From the IMG/VR virus record IMGVR_UViG_2529292911_000007: 49,111 bases of DNA; one strand, given 5' to 3'. The DNA comes from a virus (Duplodnaviria > Heunggongvirae > Uroviricota > Caudoviricetes). Positions 9,102 to 19,424 of the stretch are shown here, piece by piece. Each line of letters begins with the position of its first letter. Within the stretch, counting starts at the first letter, position 1. The translations under genes were made by a program, and so were the position numbers. Below the pieces are notes generated by a model, which was given only the letters and a program-made list of their open reading frames with translations, was not told the DNA's origin and did not search any database.

Positions 9102-10031
9102 ATGGCAAACACTGCTGAGATATTCAATTTTCCAGTGCCGGATGTGGCACAAAAGGAGCCGCGCGTGGCAGATCTCGACGATGGTTATACGCGCATTGCA
9201 AATGAGTTGCTGGAAGCTGTGATGCTGGCCGGATTAACACAGCACCAGCTTCTGGTCTTCCTGGCTGTCATGCGCAAAACATATGGCTTTAATAAAAGAC
9301 TGGATTGGGTGAGCAACGAGCAACTTTCCGAATTGACCGGGATATTGCCGCACAAGTGTTCTGCTGCAAAAAGCGTTCTGGTAAAGCGTGGGATTCTTAT
9401 TCAGAGCGGGCGGAATATCGGCATTAATAATGTGGTCAGTGAATGGTCAACATTACCCGAATCAGGTAAGAAAAATAAAGTTTACCTGAAAGAGGTAAAT
9501 TTACCTGAATCAGGTAAGAAAAGTTTACCCAAATCAGGTAAAGGCGTTTACCCGAATCAGGTAAACACAAAAGACAAACTAACAAAAGACAATATAAAAC
9601 CTTTTTCGTCCGAGAATTATGGCGAATCCTCTGACCAGCCAGAAAATGCCCTTCCTGTGGTGAAACCGGATGCTGCAATTCAGAGCGGCAGCAAGTGGGG
9701 GACAGCAGAAGACCTGACCGCCGCAGAGTGGATGTTTGACATGGTGAAGACCATCGCGCCATCAGCCAGAAAACCGAATTTTGCAGGGTGGGCTAACGAT
9801 ATCCGCCTGATGCGTGAACGTGACGGACGTAACCACCGCGACATGTGTGTACTGTTCCGCTGGGCATGCCAGGACAACTTCTGGTCCGGTAACGTGCTGA
9901 GTCCGGCCAAACTCCGCGACAAGTGGACCCAGCTCGAAATCAACCGAAACAAGCAACAGGCTGGCGTGACAGCCGGCAAACCAAAACTCGACCTGACAAA
10001 CACAGACTGGATTTACGGGGTGGATCTATGA
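9102..10031 (+). CDS. O: Replication initiator O (lambda O family)
   Basis: ATG 9102 with GGGAGG RBS; N-terminal region resembles lambda O (VADLDDGY...RKTYG.NK); ori iterons lie inside the gene as in lambda. Confidence 0.8.
   Translation: MANTAEIFNFPVPDVAQKEPRVADLDDGYTRIANELLEAVMLAGLTQHQLLVFLAVMRKTYGFNKRLDWVSNEQLSELTGILPHKCSAAKSVLVKRGILIQSGRNIGINNVVSEWSTLPESGKKNKVYLKEVNLPESGKKSLPKSGKGVYPNQVNTKDKLTKDNIKPFSSENYGESSDQPENALPVVKPDAAIQSGSKWGTAEDLTAAEWMFDMVKTIAPSARKPNFAGWANDIRLMRERDGRNHRDMCVLFRWACQDNFWSGNVLSPAKLRDKWTQLEINRNKQQAGVTAGKPKLDLTNTDWIYGVDL
9453..9600. repeat. Origin of replication: five about 18-bp iterons (TTTACCYRAATCAGGTAA) plus A/T-rich tract
   Basis: Direct repeats at 9453, 9481, 9500, 9524 and 9547 followed by an A-rich segment (acaaaagacaaactaacaaaagacaatataaaac); lambda ori architecture. 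Confidence 0.75.
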
Positions 10032-10741
10032 AAAACATCGCCGCACAGATGATTAACTTTGACCGTGAGCAGATGCGCCGGATCGCCAACAACATGCCGG
10101 AACAGTACGACGAAAAGCCGCAGGTACAGCAGGTAGCGCAGATCATCAACGGTGTATTCAGCCAGTTGCTGGCAACTTTCCCTGCGAGCCTGGCTAACCG
10201 TGACCAGAACGAACTGAACGAAATTCGCCGCCAGTGGGTTCTGGCTTTCCGGGAAAACGGGATCACCACAATGGAACAGGTTAACGCTGGAATGCGCGTA
10301 GCCCGTCGGCAGAATCGACCATTCCTGCCGTCGCCCGGCCAGTTCGTAGCGTGGTGTAAGCAGAGTGGCGGGGCGTTAGGTATCACTGTTGACCAAGTCA
10401 TAACCGAATACTGGGATTGGCGTAATCGTTCCTTCGAATTCACTTCCAGCGAGCATTTCCCGTGGTCACAGCCTGTCATGTACCACATCTGCGTCGAACT
10501 GCGCCACCGCAGCACAGAGCGCCAGTTAACGCATGGTGAGCTGGCGCGTGAAGCCGGCGATCTGCTGGACATGTGGGAGAGGCGCGTCACCGAGGGCAAA
10601 CCAGTACCGCCTGTGCGCCGGGCGATTGCAGCACCGGCTGCCGAGCATGGCCCGACGCCAATCCAGCTGCTTCAGGCGAAGTACAACCGCAACAAGTCGA
10701 ACGGGATGGTGCGAAGTGGTAAAGAAGATAATAAAGAATAA
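10028..10741 (+). CDS. P: Replication protein P (DnaB helicase loader)
   Basis: MKNIAAQMINFDREQMRRIANNMPEQYDEKPQVQQVAQIINGVFSQLLATFPASLANRDQNE... matches lambda P N-terminal two-thirds from memory; ATGA overlap with the O stop. Confidence 0.85.
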   Translation: MKNIAAQMINFDREQMRRIANNMPEQYDEKPQVQQVAQIINGVFSQLLATFPASLANRDQNELNEIRRQWVLAFRENGITTMEQVNAGMRVARRQNRPFLPSPGQFVAWCKQSGGALGITVDQVITEYWDWRNRSFEFTSSEHFPWSQPVMYHICVELRHRSTERQLTHGELAREAGDLLDMWERRVTEGKPVPPVRRAIAAPAAEHGPTPIQLLQAKYNRNKSNGMVRSGKEDNKE

Positions 10742-10819
10742 TATTTAGGGTTATAGGTCTTAGCCCATTTTAAATGGAAGGCAGACATGCAGCCATGCAT
10801 ACTTCGCATGGCAACATAA

Positions 10820-11248
10820 TTATTTAGACAAACTATCTAATTTTTGCGTCGCTTTTTGTGTTAGGTCGCTGTAACTGATAAACCCTACGTTAGCACCTAC
10901 AATTAACACTAAGAACACTAAGCTGCATATGGATAGAGTGGCAGATTTATGCTTATGGAAAACAAAATATGCTACTATTGCACTTAATATGAAGGAAATG
11001 AATAGAAATATAGATGTTGATGTTTTTAGATATTTTTCAGGAAATAATGGGTGAGCAATAATGTATACAAGATTAAGTAGTATATAAATTGCTACCGGAA
11101 TGAAAATCATGCTCCAGTGTGTATCTTTTTTGGGAGGGATTGGCTGCAAATAATCAGACACCGTTTTTCCATCAGTTTCAAGAAGAATTACTAGATCTCT
11201 TACTTCACCACTGACTTGAGTGCCATCCTTAGTAGTAATGTTAATCAT
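10820..11248 (-). CDS. Small membrane protein with three predicted TM helices (unknown function), distal gene of an AT-rich two-gene module
   Basis: About 45-aa soluble N-terminus followed by three hydrophobic segments (IFIPVAIYILLNLVYIIAHPLF, IFLFISFILSAIVAYFVF, LSICSLVFLVLIVGANVGFI); ATG 11248 overlaps the upstream stop (ATGA); alternative start at 11305. Confidence 0.45.
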   Translation of the reverse strand: MINITTKDGTQVSGEVRDLVILLETDGKTVSDYLQPIPPKKDTHWSMIFIPVAIYILLNLVYIIAHPLFPEKYLKTSTSIFLFISFILSAIVAYFVFHKHKSATLSICSLVFLVLIVGANVGFISYSDLTQKATQKLDSLSK

Positions 11249-11622
11249 TTTTTCCCTCCAAATACGATGCCCTCTACGTCTTTGGAAGCTTTTTGTGATG
11301 ACCACTCCTCTGAATCAGGTGATTTAATTAAAAATATTGTATCTCCATCAAAAATCGTATTTGTTCCGTAAAAATTTACATTTGATAGATCACCACCAAA
11401 AACCCTCTGCCCACTCGAGGTAATTGCCTCACCTAATTTAGTAAAATTACCTGCAATAGATGATTTTCTTTTTCCACTTCTATTCAAAGTGGCTTTAATT
11501 ACACCACCACCATCCTTAGAGTTAAATAATTGAATGTCCACTCCAGCAGTTGGTTGTATATATTTTGAAAGCTCTTTCTTGAACTTGTTAATATATTTAT
11601 CTTTGTTTTCTTTGTTGGTCAT
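11245..11622 (-). CDS. Hypothetical soluble Lys/Gly-rich protein (unknown function), proximal gene of an AT-rich two-gene module
   Basis: 125-aa ORF, AT-rich, antisense to the flanking phage operons; no domain recognised. Confidence 0.45.
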   Translation of the reverse strand: MTNKENKDKYINKFKKELSKYIQPTAGVDIQLFNSKDGGGVIKATLNRSGKRKSSIAGNFTKLGEAITSSGQRVFGGDLSNVNFYGTNTIFDGDTIFLIKSPDSEEWSSQKASKDVEGIVFGGKK

Positions 11623-11794
11623 TGGTTAGATCCATAGTTCTGGCTGTGATTAGGTGAAAGTATACAAGGTTTTTAAAGCGAAGATCACTGTTTTGGCTTC
11701 AAGATAGTTTTGATTTATCGTAATCAATCCGCCATAATCCTCTCATCGGAGCCTGAACAACTCCGGTGACTTCTGCGCATTTAAGGGGACTTAA

Positions 11795-11890
11795 ATGCGA
11801 CCACAATCTGAACTCATCACCTTGTCACAGATGCAGAAATGCACCTGCGATTTTCTGCATTCTGCGGTTTCCGTTAGGGAGGCCGTATGA
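11795..11890 (+). CDS. Small ORF (31 aa) translationally coupled to ybcN; ylcH-like position
   Basis: ATG 11795 with AAGGGGA RBS; stop overlaps the ybcN ATG (gtATGA). Confidence 0.3.
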   Translation: MRPQSELITLSQMQKCTCDFLHSAVSVREAV

Positions 11891-12342
11891 CTCTGCCAGT
11901 AGACGGCATCAAACTCCATCGCGGTAACTTCGCGGCCATCGGCCAGCAGATTCAGCCATTGCTGGATGCCGGGCAATGCTTACGCCTGCAGGTTAAGCCG
12001 TGGCGCGAGAAGCGCAGCCTGTCGCAGAACGCGCTCAGCCACATGTGGTACACGGAGATCAGCGAATATCTCATCGCCCGCGGCAAGACCTTCGCTACGC
12101 CTGAGTGGGTCAAAGACGCGATGAAGCACACCTATCTCGGCTACGAAAGCAAAGACCGTGTAGATGTCGTGTCCGGCGAGGTCACCACCGTCCAATCCCT
12201 CCGCCATACGTCAGAGCTGGAAACCGGCGAGATGTACATCTTCCTGTGCAAAGTCGAAGCCTGGGCGATGAATATCGGCTGCCACCTGACAATTCCGCAG
12301 AGCTGTGAATACCAGCAGCTGCGCGATAAGCAGGAGGCGTAA
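11887..12342 (+). CDS. ybcN: YbcN-like nin-region protein (DLP12 YbcN family)
   Basis: 151 aa MTLPVDGIKLHRGNFAAIGQQ...; size and sequence match DLP12 YbcN as I recall it. Confidence 0.65.
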   Translation: MTLPVDGIKLHRGNFAAIGQQIQPLLDAGQCLRLQVKPWREKRSLSQNALSHMWYTEISEYLIARGKTFATPEWVKDAMKHTYLGYESKDRVDVVSGEVTTVQSLRHTSELETGEMYIFLCKVEAWAMNIGCHLTIPQSCEYQQLRDKQEA

Positions 12343-12513
12343 TGGCTACACCGCTTATTCGTGTCATGAACGGGCACATCTACAGAGTATCAAATCGTCG
12401 TAAGCGTAAGCCTGAGCTGAAGCCATCCGAAATACCAACACTGCTCGGATATACCGCTAGCCTGGTTGATAAAAAATGGTTGCGACTGGCAGCAAGGAGG
12501 AATCATGGCTGAT
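12343..12513 (+). CDS. ninE: NinE-like protein
   Basis: 56-aa ORF ([56 protein letters not shown]) after an AGGAGG RBS; basic, ends like lambda NinE (W.RLA.R). Below the ORF-track length cutoff. Confidence 0.55.
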
Positions 12514-13948: not shown

Positions 13949-15031
13949 TTAGAACTGGTAAACCATACCTACAGCAACGATATCATCGGTAGCAACGCCA
14001 GATGCTTTCGTGAAATCGCTCTTATCAATCAGGTTGATTTTGTAATCAACAAAAGTGGACATATTTTTGTTGAAGTAATAGGTTGCACCTACATCAATAT
14101 ATTCAACCAGGTCCTGATCACCCCACGCACCCAAGTCTTTTCCTTTAGATTGCAGGTAAGCAACGGACGGACGCAGACCGAAGTCGAACTGATATTGTGC
14201 AACTACTTCGAAGTTTTGTGCTTTGTTGGCAATATGGTTATTACCAAAAACAGTCATGTTCTGGGTTTCAGAATAGGTGGTAGCCAGATAGATGTTGTTC
14301 GCATCATATTTCAGACCAGCTGCCCATACTTCAGCATTTTGACCAGATGCATTCAGGCTGTTGTTACCGTAGATAACCTGATTATTAGTGCGGTCAGATT
14401 TAGCATAGGTTGCACCTACACCGAATCCTTCATACTCATAAGTAGTGGAGAAACCGAAACCATCACCATTAGCTTCAGTTACGTCAGTGCGGTCATTTTT
14501 ACCCTGATACTGAGCAGCAAAGTTCAGACCATCAACCAGACCAAAGAAGTCGTTGTTACGATAAGTTGCAACACCAGTGGTGCGACCAGTCATGAACACA
14601 TCTGTTTGGGTCCAGGTATCGCCACCGAATTCTGGCAGAACGTCAGTCCACGCACCGATGTCATATGCTACACCGTAGTTACGGCCGTAATCGATTGAGC
14701 CGTAGTCCCCGAATTTCAGGCCTGCAAATGCAAGACGGGTTTTGTCTTTGGAGGAGCCTTGAGATTCAGCGCGGTTGCCTTTGAATTCATATTCCCACTG
14801 ACCGAAACCAGTCAGTTGATCGTTGATTTGGGTTTCACCTTTGAAGCCAAGACGGGCATAAGTAGTATCACCATCATCTGCATCATTAGAGGAGAAGTAG
14901 TGCTTGGCATTAACTTTCCCATATAGATCCAGCTTGTTACTGTCTTTATTATAAATTTCAGCTGCCTGAGCAGACATCGCCATCAGTACTGATGCAGCTA
15001 CAGCAGAAATTGCCACTGTTAATTTTTTCAT
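13949..15031 (-). CDS. nmpC: Outer-membrane general porin (NmpC/OmpD-like)
   Basis: 360 aa with signal peptide ([23 protein letters not shown]) and C-terminal beta-barrel signature ending in F; OmpC/OmpF-family motifs; sits between Q and the holin as in DLP12. Confidence 0.85.
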
Positions 15032-16164: not shown

Positions 16165-16250
16165 TGGCCCCCTGAATCTCCAGACAACCAATATCACTTA
16201 TTTAAGTGATAGTCTTAATACTAGTTTTTAGACTAGTCATTGGAGAGCAG

Positions 16251-16616
16251 ATGATTGATGTCTTAGGACCGGAGAAACGCAGACGGCGTACTACACAGGA
16301 AAAGATCGCTATTGTTCAGCAGAGTTTTGAACCGGGAATGACAGTCTCCCTTGTTGCCCGGCAACACGGTGTGGCAGCCAGCCAGTTATTTCTCTGGCGC
16401 AAGCAATACCAGGAGGGAAGTCTTACTGCTGTGGCCGCAGGAGAACAGGTCGTTCCTGCCTCTGAACTTGCTGCCGCCATGAAGCAGATTAAAGAACTCC
16501 AGCGCCTGCTCGGCAAAAAAACGATGGAAAATGAACTCCTTAAAGAAGCCGTTGAATATGGGCGTGCAAAAAAGTGGATAGCGCACGCGCCCTTATTGCC
16601 CGGGGATGGGGAGTAA
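16251..16616 (+). CDS. insC: IS2 transposase OrfA (InsC)
   Basis: [56 protein letters not shown]... matches IS2 InsC from memory. Confidence 0.9.
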
Positions 16617-16814: not shown

Positions 16815-17141
16815 ATGACTAAAAATACTCGTTTTTCCCCCGAAGTCCGTCAGCGGGCGATTCGTATGGTTCTGGAAAGTCAGGATGAATATGACTCACA
16901 GTGGGCGGCAATTTGTTCCATTGCCCCAAAGATTGGCTGTACGCCGGAGACTCTGCGTGTCTGGGTTCGCCAGCATGAGCGGGATACCGGGGGCGGTGAT
17001 GGTGGGCTCACCAGCGCTGAACGTCAGCGTCTGAAAGAGCTGGAACGTGAAAATCGTGAACTGCGCCGCAGTAACGATATCCTTCGCCAGGCTTCCGCTT
17101 ATTTTGCGAAGGCGGAGTTCGACCGCCTCTGGAAAAAATGA
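16815..17141 (+). CDS. IS3-family transposase OrfA (HTH)
   Basis: 108 aa [22 protein letters not shown]... with a leucine-zipper-like C-terminus. Confidence 0.85.
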
Positions 17142-18028
17142 TGCCACTGCTGGATAAGCTGCGTGAGCAGTACGGGGTCGGACCGGTATGCAGCGAACTG
17201 CATATTGCCCCGTCAACGTATTACCATTGTCAGCAACAGCGACATCATCCGGATAAACGCAGTGCCCGTGCGCAGCACGATGACTGGCTGAAGAGAGAGA
17301 TACAGCGCGTATACGATGAAAATCATCAGGTGTACGGTGTGCGTAAAGTCTGGCGTCAGTTGTTACGGGAAGGAATCAGGGTGGCCAGATGTACAGTGGC
17401 GCGCCTCATGGCGGTTATGGGACTTGCCGGTGTTCTCCGGGGTAAAAAGGTCCGTACGACCATCAGCCGGAAAGCCGTTGCCGCAGGCGACCGCGTAAAC
17501 CGTCAGTTCGTGGCAGAACGACCTGACCAGCTGTGGGTGGCTGATTTTACTTACGTCAGCACATGGCGGGGCTTCGTCTATGTGGCGTTCATCATTGATG
17601 TGTTTGCCGGATACATCGTGGGGTGGCGGGTCTCATCGTCTATGGAAACGACATTCGTGCTGGATGCGCTGGAGCAGGCGTTGTGGGCCCGTCGTCCGTC
17701 TGGCACCATCCATCACAGCGATAAAGGCTCTCAGTATGTGTCACTGGCCTATACGGAGCGACTAAAAGAAGCCGGATTACTGGCATCAACAGGGAGTACA
17801 GGCGACTCGTATGACAACGCGATGGCTGAGAGCATCAATGGTCTTTACAAAGCGGAGGTAATACACCGTAAGAGCTGGAAAAACCGTGCAGAAGTGGAAC
17901 TGGCCACACTAACGTGGGTGGACTGGTATAACAATCGACGATTGCTGGGAAGGCTGGGCCATACTCCTCCGGCAGAAGCAGAAAAAGCTTATTATGCTTC
18001 CATCGGAAACAATGATCTGGCAGCTTGA
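17138..18028 (+). CDS. IS3-family transposase OrfB (DDE integrase core)
   Basis: 296 aa with a DDE-type catalytic region (WVADFTYV...HHSDKGSQY...DNAMAES); overlaps orfA in the -1 frame. Confidence 0.85.
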
Positions 18029-18803
18029 GTTCACAGATAAAACACTCTCCAGGAAACCCGGGGCGGTTCAAGCTGCCCACATATGGTTATCGTCGGGTAT
18101 GGGCGCTGCTTCGCAGACAGGCCGAACTTGATGGTATGCCTGCGATCAATGCCAAACGTATTTACCGGATCATGCGCCAGAATGCGCTGTTGCTTGAGCG
18201 AAAACCCGCTGTACCGCCATCGAAACGGGCACATACCGGCAGAGTGGCTGTGAAAGAAAGTAATCAGCGATGGTGCTCTGACGGGTTCGAGTTCCGCTGT
18301 GATAACGGAGAAAAACTGCGAGTCACGTTCGCGCTGGACTGCTGTGACCGTGAGGCACTGCACTGGGCGGTCACTACGGGCGGCTTCAACAGTGAAACAG
18401 TACAGGACGTCATGCTGGGAGCGGTGGAACGCCGTTTCGGCAACGAGCTTCCGGCGTCTCCAGTAGAGTGGCTGACGGATAATGGTTCATGCTACCGGGC
18501 TAATGAAACACGGCAGTTTGCCCGGATGTTGGGGCTTGAACCGAAGAACACGGCGGTGCGGAGTCCGGAGAGTAACGGCATAGCAGAGAGCTTCGTGAAA
18601 ACGATAAAGCGTGACTACATCAGTGTCATGCCCAAACCAGACGGGTTAACGGCAGCAAAGAACCTTGCAGAGGCATTCGAGCATTATAACGAATGGCATC
18701 CGCATAGTGCACTGGGTTATCGCTCGCCACGGGAATATCTACGGCAGCAAGCCAGTAATGGGTTAAGTGATAACAGGTGTCTGGAAATATAGGGGCAAAT
18801 CCA

Positions 18804-18966
18804 CAATTTCAGAACATCGACGCTTCTTCGCAAAATAAACCAGGGCGATATCAAAGGCGCATGTGATCAGCTACGTCGCTGGACATATGCTGGCGGTAAG
18901 CAATGGAAAGGTCTCATGACTCGTCGTGAGATTGAGCGTGAAATCTGTTTGTGGGGTCAGCAATGA
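18804..18966 (+). pseudogene. rrrD: Phage lysozyme (RrrD-like), 3' fragment downstream of IS2
   Basis: In-frame continuation ...[51 protein letters not shown] immediately after the IS2 right end and target duplication. Confidence 0.8.
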
Positions 18967-19424
18967 ACAGAGTAACCGCGATTATCTCCGCTCTGGTTAT
19001 CTGCATCATCGTCTGCCTGTCATGGGCTGTTAATCATTACCGTGATAACGCCATTACCTACAAAGCCCAGCGCGACAAAAATGCCAGAGAACTGAAGCTG
19101 GCGAACGCGGCAATTACTGACATGCAGATGCGCCAGCGTGATGTTGCTGCACTGGATGAAAAATACACGAAGGAGTTAGCTAATGCGAAAGCTGAAAATG
19201 ATGCTCTGCGTGATGATGTTGCCGCTGGTCGTCGTCGGTTGCACATCAAAGCAGTCTGTCAGTCAGTGCGTGAAGCCACCACCGCCTCCGGCGTGGATAA
19301 TGCAGCCTCCCCCCGACTGGCAGACACCGCTGAACAGGATTGTTTCACCCTCAGAGAGAGGCTGATCACTATGCAAAAACAACTGGAAGGAACCCAGAAG
19401 TATATTAATGAGCAGTGCAGATAG
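18963..19424 (+). CDS. rzpD: Rz-like spanin (inner-membrane subunit)
   Basis: 153 aa from ATG 18963 overlapping the lysozyme stop; N-terminal TM segment then coiled-coil-like region. Confidence 0.7.
19183..19365 (+). CDS. rzoD: Rz1-like spanin (outer-membrane lipoprotein), embedded in the Rz +1 frame
   Basis: 60 aa with lipobox (LVVVGC) and a proline-rich tract, nested inside Rz. Confidence 0.6.

What the first reader, a model, noticed from the sequence alone, without database searches (positions are those of the whole stretch)
10820..11622. AT-rich, translationally coupled two-gene module (soluble protein plus 3-TM membrane protein) inserted antisense between P and the nin genes; no recognisable family
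Between replication gene P and ylcH/ybcN, where lambda carries ren, two minus-strand genes form a compact operon (stop and start overlap as ATGA). Composition is visibly AT-rich compared with neighbours, which suggests horizontal acquisition. The upstream gene encodes a 125-aa Lys/Gly-rich soluble protein and the downstream a small protein with three predicted TM helices. Small soluble-plus-membrane pairs carried as prophage morons are a recurring architecture of superinfection-exclusion and abortive-infection systems. I cannot assign either protein to a known family, so this is a candidate for an undescribed system.
Basis: partly seen in the sequence, partly recalled or inferred. Interest (0 to 1): 0.75.

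Follow-up and report, generated by a model that had tools for sequence, protein, structure and literature searches.

The report
Uncharacterised two-gene prophage membrane module
Two small real genes (a soluble protein and a three-helix membrane protein) sit as a self-contained AT-rich insert in an E. coli lambda-like prophage; the same gene pair recurs across several bacterial phyla, matches no described family, and is a reasonable but unproven candidate for a new anti-phage or toxin-like system.

Summary
Two minus-strand genes, A (11245-11622, 125 aa, soluble) and B (10820-11248, 142 aa, three TM helices), overlap as ATGA. They form a 34% GC cassette between P and ybcN, antisense to the phage early genes.

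Both evolve under strong purifying selection (dN/dS about 0.1). Neither matches Pfam, NCBIfam, PADLOC or any PDB sequence. PHROGs holds both only as 'unknown function'.

New here: the pair is not an enterobacterial orphan. An exhaustive profile search found 111 representative clusters of A. In 56 loci examined (Proteobacteria, Bacteroidota, Verrucomicrobia, Cyanobacteria, viral contigs), A was directly followed by a small membrane protein wherever the locus allowed a check (two copies damaged or cut off). Most partners are B homologues, and many overlap A by the same four bases.

Contexts are prophages, a conjugative element, toxin-antitoxin or restriction islands, and ordinary chromosome. One A variant is fused to a McrA-like HNH nuclease instead.

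My best reading (about 0.4) is a conflict module in which cytoplasmic A controls or senses and B is the membrane effector. This is analogous to RexAB but not homologous to it. Function is untested, and the structure models were weak.

The parts
11245..11622 (-). Gene A: 125-aa soluble, Lys/Gly/Ser-rich protein (pI 9.5). It belongs to a broad unannotated family with the conserved motif F.GTN....N.I.LIKD....W....A..DV. It matches phrog_18061.
   Evidence: ORF and sequence. Composition. Family. No Pfam, NCBIfam, PADLOC or PDB match. dN/dS 0.08-0.11.
10820..11248 (-). Gene B: 142-aa inner-membrane protein. It has an acidic N-terminal soluble mini-domain of about 40 aa, three TM helices and a short C-terminal helix. 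Predicted topology is N-in/C-out. It matches phrog_16940.
   Evidence: Family alignment A7 and positive-inside count (loop 2 K+R 1.9 against D+E 0.35). hhalign to the partners of distant A homologues gives 85.6% probability, E 5.6e-6. dN/dS 0.08-0.13.
11245..11248 (-). ATGA stop/start overlap between A and B, taken as translational coupling.
   Evidence: Read directly. The same 4-base overlap occurs in L009, L013 and L017 and in at least 10 of 22 GTDB loci.
11255..11259 (-). GGAGG Shine-Dalgarno sequence for B, lying inside the 3' end of A.
   Evidence: Read directly.
11659..11664 (-). TATACT, a candidate -10 hexamer 36 nt upstream of A's ATG. It aligns with TGaTATAGT, which is preceded by TAGACC at about 17 nt, in diverged cassettes. 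This is an inference; the consensus scan did not call it.
   Evidence: Alignment of upstream regions. The promoter scan found no site here.
10787..10817 (-). Stable hairpin (GCCAUGC-N7-GCAUGGC core) immediately after B's stop codon. It is conserved in diverged Klebsiella and other cassettes. It is a likely 3' end or terminator element of the cassette.
   Evidence: stem invariant in 5 cassettes. (MFE -23 kcal/mol, z -2.8 to -3.2).
10742..11708 (.). Approximate extent of the inserted cassette (about 0.97 kb), comprising the promoter-like region, A, B and the hairpin.
   Evidence: Homology to other E. coli prophages resumes at window ~11708-11721 on the right and ends at or within P on the left. 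Related prophages carry other cargo in this slot.

Best explanation
The module is a self-contained moron cassette carried by a lambda-like prophage. It consists of its own promoter-like region, gene A, gene B and a 3' hairpin, and I read it as a two-protein, membrane-anchored conflict module (phage exclusion or abortive infection type).

Proposed working:
- The cassette is transcribed antisense to the phage early-right operon, so it can be expressed in the lysogen (inferred from orientation and the conserved -10-like element).
- A and B are made together through the ATGA overlap and the internal GGAGG (shown in sequence, conserved across phyla).
- B inserts in the inner membrane N-in/C-out and exposes its conserved acidic N-terminal mini-domain (consensus EGTPEEI.DL..N.GL....Y) to the cytoplasm (inferred from the positive-inside rule).
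- A is a cytoplasmic alpha/beta protein that binds or controls B and acts as the sensor or regulator (inferred).
- On a trigger such as infection by another phage, B acts as the effector that damages membrane function and stops the infection (inferred by analogy with RexAB and other TM effectors).

The A domain appears to be the constant part and the effector the exchangeable part. More than 95% of loci pair it with a small polytopic membrane protein, and one lineage fuses it to a McrA-like HNH nuclease.
For: Real, selected genes: dN/dS 0.08-0.13.

Moron anatomy:
- GC 0.34 against 0.50 for the window.
- Present in only 46 of 5426 complete E. coli genomes, while the flanks occur in about 3700.
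- The slot holds other cargo in related prophages.
- A conserved -10-like element and a conserved 3' hairpin.

Position: always antisense between the replication and nin genes in lambdoid prophages with different replication and head modules.

Obligate pairing:
- A was followed by a B-type membrane protein in 29 of 29 distinct genome or metagenome loci. HMM detected 27 of these. L024 is cut by the locus end, with only B's N-terminus visible. L020 has a divergent 3-TM protein.
- In the 27 IMG/VR contigs, 25 had B by HMM (one of them N-terminally shortened), one had B split into two ORFs, and one had a 2-TM variant.
- There is no third conserved gene.

B homology across phyla: hhalign 85.6%, E 5.6e-6.

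Effector swap: P0104 is the A domain plus an HNH nuclease (PDB 6ghc McrA, E 2.6e-5; Pfam HNH on record) and occurs on two contigs.

Conflict-type neighbourhoods:
- BrnA and Gp49/HTH toxin-antitoxin genes and Hypoth_Ymh, and an Xre-MbcA antitoxin.
- A Type III MTase plus an HKD-Snf2 helicase directly upstream, PDC-M49A, and a PtuA/HEC-04-like ATPase.
- An ICE with a caspase-like peptidase directly upstream and DUF4238 nearby.
- A GHKL-like ATPase upstream.
- Integrases and transposases.

TM proteins in known systems are regarded as suicide effectors (PMC9122126).
Against: - No phenotype has been measured.
- No PADLOC model matches either protein.
- Most of the 139 neighbouring ORFs in GTDB loci are single housekeeping genes. 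Strong defence hits were pinned to only 3 of 22 loci, with further hits such as BrxA/BrxB and PDC-S45 left unmapped, so defence-island enrichment is modest and not tested statistically.
- The structure models are weak (A pLDDT 58.5, B 67.7). Fold searches returned only generic alpha/beta sandwiches and helical bundles.
- The promoter in this window's copy is weak and was not called by the scan.
- No isolated phage (50,697 records) or plasmid (72,556 records) carries the family at tblastn sensitivity.
- The HNH fusion rests on one protein cluster on short contigs.
Confidence: 0.4

Rival explanations
1. A toxin-antitoxin or addiction module. B would be a membrane toxin and A a protein antitoxin made just upstream, type II/IV-like and comparable in layout to SdhE(CptB)-YgfX(CptA). 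Its role would be to stabilise the prophage or island rather than to respond to phage. This reading partly overlaps with the best explanation.
For: The gene order is small soluble protein then small membrane protein, with a 4-base overlap. The module is carried on mobile elements and sits next to other toxin-antitoxin genes. In the HNH fusion, A could act as an inhibitory domain.
Against: A has no DNA-binding or known antitoxin domain, and no Pfam family matched at all. In E. coli CV839-06, IS1 disrupts A while B stays intact and the strain is viable. That insertion may simply be polar on B, so this point is weak. The reverse decay, with B split and A intact, also occurs.
Confidence: 0.2
2. 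A lysogenic-conversion or general membrane function unrelated to phages, such as envelope stress tolerance, transport or signalling. B would act as an anchor that holds A at the membrane.
For: Many chromosomal copies in Bacteroidota and Proteobacteria sit among housekeeping genes. The window's prophage carries other conversion genes, namely a porin and an acyltransferase. No defence model matches.
Against: The distribution is very patchy: 0.85% of E. coli genomes and 22 GTDB species hit by the search pattern. The module is repeatedly carried by prophages, viral contigs and an ICE. The HNH-nuclease fusion does not fit a transport or stress role.
Confidence: 0.2
3. Classical superinfection exclusion at the inner membrane. 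B would block genome injection by incoming phages, as SieA, T4 Imm or HK97 gp15 do, with A as a helper.
For: B is an inner-membrane protein encoded by a prophage gene positioned for expression in the lysogen.
Against: Known injection blockers are single membrane proteins and none matches by sequence. The strictly conserved cytoplasmic partner, the non-phage chromosomal copies and the nuclease fusion all point to an intracellular step.
Confidence: 0.1
4. A function in the phage's own lytic cycle, for example lysis timing (holin/antiholin-like) or replication control replacing ren.
For: It occupies the ren slot and encodes a small membrane protein.
Against: It lies opposite to all lytic transcription. 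It shows no similarity to Ren by hhalign (0.14%), and no Pfam family, holin families included, reached its curated cut-off for either protein. It is absent from nearly all related prophages. It is present in non-phage chromosomal and ICE contexts.
Confidence: 0.04

Closest known systems
Lambda RexA/RexB exclusion system
   Same: A prophage-encoded pair arranged as a soluble protein then a polytopic inner-membrane protein of about 140 aa, positioned for expression in the lysogen. The proposed logic is the same: a cytoplasmic sensor activates a membrane effector.
   Different: No sequence relationship: hhalign gives 0.04% for A against RexA and 1% for B against RexB. A is 125 aa against RexA's 279 aa, and B has 3 TM helices where RexB has 4 by the textbook description. 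The module lies between P and the nin genes on the opposite strand, not in the cI operon. In this window the rex position holds a Peptidase_M78 gene and a DUF4411 gene.
Type IV toxin-antitoxin pair SdhE(CptB)/YgfX(CptA)
   Same: A small soluble protein is encoded just upstream of a small inner-membrane protein, giving a two-gene unit.
   Different: No Pfam family of any kind reached significance for 79 A and 24 B members. B has 3 TM helices plus an N-terminal soluble domain. Toxicity is untested.
HAD-like hydrolase + transmembrane protein system of P4 satellites (Rousset et al. 2022, PMC9122126)
   Same: A two-gene anti-phage system carried in a mobile-element hotspot, with a TM protein as the presumed abortive effector.
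   Different: A has no hydrolase domain or any other Pfam match, and there is no PADLOC match. The host element and insertion site also differ.
PHROG families phrog_18061 and phrog_16940
   Same: The window proteins are full-length members (E 9e-85 and 2e-96). All 79 A-family representatives match phrog_18061.
   Different: These families carry no function or name. Only 4 of 24 B-family members match phrog_16940, so PHROGs does not capture the wider B family or the pairing.
Single-protein superinfection exclusion factors (P22 SieA, T4 Imm, HK97 gp15)
   Same: Small inner-membrane proteins expressed from prophage accessory genes.
   Different: No homology was detected. This module always includes a conserved cytoplasmic partner and also occurs outside phages.

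Membership tests
RexAB (lambda) | Soluble component homologous to RexA | tested here: not met
   hhalign of A3 (79 sequences) against lambda RexA: probability 0.04%.
RexAB (lambda) | Membrane component homologous to RexB | tested here: not met
   hhalign of A7 (24 sequences) against lambda RexB: probability 1%, 23 columns aligned.
RexAB (lambda) | Encoded downstream of cI in the immunity operon | tested here: not met
   The module lies between P and ybcN. The genes downstream of cI (7415-8143) are a Peptidase_M78 gene and a DUF4411 gene.
RexAB (lambda) | Exclusion of superinfecting phage through loss of membrane potential | not testable with these tools
   This needs infection and membrane-potential assays.
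Ren (lambda, same slot) | Homology to Ren and the same strand as P | tested here: not met
   hhalign probability 0.14%. The module is on the opposite strand.
Known or candidate defence systems in PADLOC-DB v2.0.0 | A match to any of the 5027 defence protein models | tested here: not met
   No families at E<=1 for A or B.
Moron (independent transcription unit added to a phage genome) | Inserted between genes that are adjacent or differently filled in related phages, with deviant composition | tested here: met
   46 of 5426 genomes carry it while about 3700 carry the flanks. Related prophages hold other cargo in the slot. GC is 0.34 against 0.50.
Moron (independent transcription unit added to a phage genome) | Own promoter and terminator | tested here: inconclusive
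   A conserved -10-like element (TATACT/TATAGT) and a conserved 3' hairpin are present. The scan called no promoter upstream of A, and the hairpin lacks a clear U-tract on the coding strand.
Moron (independent transcription unit added to a phage genome) | Expressed from the repressed prophage | not testable with these tools
   This needs RNA-seq or a reporter in a lysogen.
Toxin-antitoxin modules (type II/IV, e.g. SdhE/YgfX) | Homology to a known toxin or antitoxin family | tested here: not met
   Among 79 A members the only Pfam hit at E<=0.01 was a single chance XPD_arch match. For 24 B members there was only sub-threshold TM noise. NCBIfam gave none.
Toxin-antitoxin modules (type II/IV, e.g. 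SdhE/YgfX) | B toxic alone and neutralised by A | not testable with these tools
   The only indirect hint is that IS1 in A with B intact is viable in strain CV839-06, and polarity is possible.
Holins and lysis regulators | Membership of a holin family, located in the lysis cassette and transcribed late | tested here: not met
   No Pfam holin family matched. The lysis genes lie at about 15.8-19.4 kb on the other strand.
phrog_18061 / phrog_16940 | Full-length HMM match | tested here: met
   E 9.3e-85 (residues 1-125 of 125) and 2.3e-96 (1-142 of 142). Both are annotated 'unknown function'.

The most novel reading that the evidence does not exclude
The A domain (about 120 aa, motif F.GTN...LIKD...W...A..DV) would be a previously unrecognised sensor or regulator domain of a widespread prokaryotic conflict system. 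It would couple to interchangeable effectors, usually the dedicated 3-TM protein B and in one lineage an HNH nuclease. The A/B pair would then be a new anti-phage abortive-infection or exclusion system spread by prophages, ICEs and islands across Proteobacteria, Bacteroidota, Verrucomicrobia and Cyanobacteria.
Probability: 0.35. Interest if true: 0.7.

Novelty: new variant of a known kind. Interest (0 to 1): 0.55.

Why it matters
If the pair is a defence or toxin-type module, it adds a compact (0.8 kb), easily testable system. Both of its protein families are absent from Pfam, NCBIfam, PADLOC and the PDB, yet they are conserved as a pair across at least four phyla.

It would show that the ren/nin slot of lambdoid prophages is a cargo site for such systems. 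It would also give a new small sensor/effector pair in which to study how a 3-helix membrane protein is controlled by a cytoplasmic partner.

If it proves unrelated to phage conflict, it still defines two new protein families and an obligate gene pair that annotation pipelines currently label 'hypothetical'.

Tried and rejected
- Pfam, NCBIfam and PADLOC on both window proteins gave nothing except sub-threshold TM noise for B.
- Pfam run on 79 A and 24 B family members individually also gave nothing.
- PDB sequence searches with single sequences and with profiles gave nothing significant.
- AlphaFold2 used shallow, enterobacteria-only alignments and gave weak models (pLDDT 58.5 and 67.7).
I replaced it with a hand-made degenerate DNA pattern.
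- RexA, RexB and Ren homology was rejected by hhalign.
- A conserved third gene was rejected by all-against-all BLAST of neighbours.
- The literature held no paper with the RefSeq accessions or PHROG ids. The E. coli prophage defence screen of Brenes & Laub 2025 is not held, so I could not check whether it tested this pair.
- Megablast and tblastn against isolated phages and plasmids found no match.

Full report
**1. What is there**

The window is a lambda-like prophage of E. coli. Its gene order is int, xis, exo, bet, gam, kil, cI, cro, a YdaT-like gene, O, P, the module, ybcN, ninE, ybcO, rusA, ylcG, quuD, a porin, the lysis genes, terminase, and head and tail genes. In close relatives the prophage is integrated next to icd.

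Two minus-strand ORFs lie between P (10028-10741) and ybcN (11887-12342):
- Gene A is 11245-11622 and encodes 125 aa.
- Gene B is 10820-11248 and encodes 142 aa.

A's stop and B's start overlap as ATGA, and a GGAGG lies 6 nt upstream of B's ATG.

GC is 0.337 over the two genes against 0.501 for the window, with sharp steps at both ends.

A has no hydrophobic segment and is rich in Lys, Gly and Ser. B has three hydrophobic segments, and AlphaFold models them as three long helices after a short N-terminal beta-beta-alpha unit.

**2. The genes are real and form a cassette**

Full-length homologues at 60-92% identity occur in Enterobacter, Klebsiella, Shigella and other Enterobacteriaceae. Between three diverged copies, dN/dS is 0.08-0.13 for both genes, with dS near saturation.

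In 5426 complete E. coli genomes the 971-bp module is found in 46, always at 99% identity or more and always annotated as two hypothetical proteins. The flanking P and ybcN sequences are found in about 3700 genomes.

Homology to other prophages resumes about 86-100 nt upstream of A's start codon (window ~11708-11721) and stops at the end of P. The insert is therefore about 0.97 kb. Related prophages fill the same slot with other genes in the sense orientation.

Diverged cassettes share two non-coding elements:
- A -10-like element about 36 nt upstream of A. It reads TGaTATAGT preceded by TAGACC in Klebsiella-type copies and TATACT in the window.
- A stable hairpin directly after B's stop codon.

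The consensus scan did not call a promoter in the window's copy, so the promoter remains an inference.

In lambdoid prophages with quite different replication modules (O/P, DnaB-type, DnaC-type) and different head genes, the pair always lies antisense between the replication genes and the nin genes.

**3. No described family matches**

- Pfam, NCBIfam and PADLOC give nothing for A, and only sub-threshold transmembrane noise for B.
- PDB sequence searches are empty.
- PHROGs contains both proteins as full-length families (phrog_18061 and phrog_16940), both labelled 'unknown function'.
- All names given by public sources are 'hypothetical protein'.
- No paper in the held library cites the accessions or PHROG ids.

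**4.

An exhaustive profile search of 1.84 billion representative proteins found 111 clusters (E<=1e-3). Nearly all are full-length proteins of 120-135 aa.

Their alignment shows a conserved N-terminal helix (I..YINNFRR.L...LKP..G) and the C-terminal motif F.GTN....N.I.LIKD....W....A..DV. None of 79 members has a credible Pfam domain, and all 79 match phrog_18061.

Distant members (28-35% identity) are each followed by a gene of about 125-128 aa that overlaps by four bases. Its product has B's architecture. Profile-profile comparison supports homology with the enterobacterial B proteins (85.6%, E 5.6e-6 over 108 columns).

A degenerate DNA pattern for the A motif retrieved 22 loci from one-genome-per-species GTDB contigs. 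All 22 are true family members by HMM. They come from:
- Bacteroidota: Flavobacterium, Chitinophaga, Pedobacter, Chryseobacterium, Bacteroides, Cellulophaga, Algibacter, Mariniflexile and others.
- Alpha-, Beta-, Gamma- and Deltaproteobacteria.
- Horticoccus (Verrucomicrobia).
- Synechococcus.

Pairing counts:
- Across 29 distinct genome or metagenome loci, a B homologue follows A in 27 by HMM. Of the other two, L024 is cut by the locus end with B's N-terminus visible, and L020 has a divergent 3-TM protein.
- In 27 IMG/VR viral contigs, 25 have B by HMM (one N-terminally shortened), one has B split into two ORFs, and one has a 2-TM, 103-aa partner.
- No third gene is conserved.

The unit of selection is therefore the pair.

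**5. Features of the pair**

The best-conserved part of the B family is its acidic N-terminal mini-domain (consensus MK.G..EGTPEEI.DL..N.GL....Y, net charge -1 to -6 in nearly all of the 24 members). Also conserved are the TM2/loop-2 motif WL....H.RFK and the motif LG..TP.E after TM3.

Loop 2 is net positive (K+R 1.9 against D+E 0.35) while loop 1 is neutral. This favours N-in/C-out topology, with the N-terminal mini-domain in the cytoplasm, where A is.

**6. Context and variants**

Besides prophages, the pair occurs in these settings:
- A variable region after smc-zipA-ligA, near an Xre-MbcA antitoxin.
- An island with BrnA, Gp49/HTH toxin-antitoxin genes, acetyltransferases and Hypoth_Ymh.
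- Directly downstream of a Type III methyltransferase and an HKD-Snf2 helicase in Bacteroides.
- Next to PADLOC candidate PDC-M49A.
- Near a PtuA/HEC-04-like ATPase (covering the last three).
- In the cargo region of an integrative conjugative element, just after a caspase-like peptidase and near DUF4238.
- After a GHKL-like ATPase near a phage O-type replication gene.

Most other neighbours in the 22 GTDB loci are ordinary housekeeping genes, with three integrases and two transposases among 139 ORFs. The association with defence islands is real in some loci but modest, and I did not test it statistically.

One cluster (P0104, on two contigs) fuses the A domain to a McrA-like HNH nuclease (E 2.6e-5 to PDB 6ghc; Pfam HNH on record).

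One variant (P0083) is an orphan with an N-terminal hydrophobic segment and no B.

Decay occurs in both directions. IS1 disrupts A in E. coli CV839-06 with B intact, and B is split in one viral contig.

No isolated phage or plasmid record carries the family at tblastn sensitivity.

**7. Interpretation**

Shown:
- A self-contained, horizontally mobile, strongly selected two-gene cassette.
- An obligate, translationally coupled pair of a cytoplasmic protein and a small polytopic membrane protein.
- An orientation compatible with expression from the repressed prophage.
- Carriage by prophages, an ICE and islands.
- An alternative nuclease partner for the A domain.

Inferred:
- A binds or controls B through B's cytoplasmic mini-domain.
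- B is a membrane-damaging effector.
- The trigger is phage infection.

This is how RexAB and other systems with TM effectors are thought to work (PMC9122126). The module is not a member of the Rex family: hhalign probabilities are 1% or below, the sizes and TM number differ, and so does the locus. It is also unrelated to Ren, whose slot it occupies.

I give the conflict-module reading about 0.4. The rivals are:
- A toxin-antitoxin or addiction reading, about 0.2. It overlaps mechanistically with the best reading.
- An unrelated membrane or conversion function, about 0.2.
- A pure injection block, about 0.1.
- A lytic-cycle role, about 0.04.

**8. Novelty and verdict**

Both protein families and their pairing are undescribed in the libraries and literature I could search. 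The general architecture (a soluble partner plus a TM effector carried as a prophage moron) is a known kind. I therefore rate the module a new variant of a known kind, with function unproven.

I could not consult the 2025 E. coli prophage defence screen or newer DefenseFinder models, and this limits the novelty claim.

Interest is 0.55. The module is a clean, compact, widely conserved and directly testable candidate, but candidates of this type are numerous and nothing here demonstrates a phenotype.

Noticed in passing
window 5639-7286 (-): A 379-aa Peptidase_M78/IrrE-like protein (6147-7286) and a DUF4411 (PIN-like) ORF (5639-5974) lie directly downstream of the cI repressor gene (7415-8143), the position rexAB holds in lambda. 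The DUF4411 ORF matches only profile positions 56-154 and may be truncated. This is another accessory pair of possible defence or toxin type.
   Followed up: partly
window 17096-18792 (+): Two IS3-family transposase ORFs with rve domains (17138-18028 and 18025-18792) and an ALIL frameshift pseudoknot (17096-17212, 121 bits) are inserted between the endolysin (16206-16616) and Rz (18951-19424). The prophage's lysis cassette is therefore interrupted by IS elements.
   Followed up: partly
window 46047-49111 (+): A McrB-like AAA_5 ATPase (660 aa) is followed by an overlapping McrC-family protein. This is a McrBC-type restriction system at the far end of the window, and the McrC ORF runs to the window edge.
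   Followed up: no
window 43923-44789 (-) and 13949-15031 (-): Other lysogenic-conversion-type cargo on the minus strand. One is an Acyl_transf_3 acyltransferase after the tail-fibre genes. The other is an OmpC/NmpC-like porin between quuD and the lysis genes.
   Followed up: no
window 2405-2962 (-): A phage Dam-type N6-adenine methyltransferase (Pfam Dam, E 2e-56) lies in the early-left region.
   Followed up: no
L034 1790-2299 (-), L003 4519-5043 (+), L013 8745-9032 (+): An unannotated protein family of about 170 aa (motif ENWY..L.LPDICG ... FL.G.D.YALRCA.LHEGS) appears within a few kb of the A/B pair in three unrelated loci. It is directly upstream of A in L034. It may be another mobile accessory gene.
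   Followed up: partly
L070 (E. coli CV839-06) 1093-1950: An IS1A element is inserted in gene A, leaving a 49-aa N-terminal fragment, while gene B remains intact. Over the 2.2-kb P-to-ybcN query (window 10200-12400) the strain is otherwise 100% identical to the window.
   Followed up: yes
L002 5665-7348 and 9118-10971: In the most diverged enterobacterial prophage carrying the pair, the same replication-to-nin interval also holds a DndB-like gene with an HNH gene, and a weak colicin-like gene with a weak colicin-immunity-like gene. The interval appears to accumulate accessory cargo.
   Followed up: no
L074/L075 246-1589: A 447-aa protein joins an N-terminal A-family domain to a McrA-like HNH nuclease and an uncharacterised C-terminal region of about 200 aa. 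It was seen on two short metagenomic contigs, so its genomic context is unknown.
   Followed up: partly
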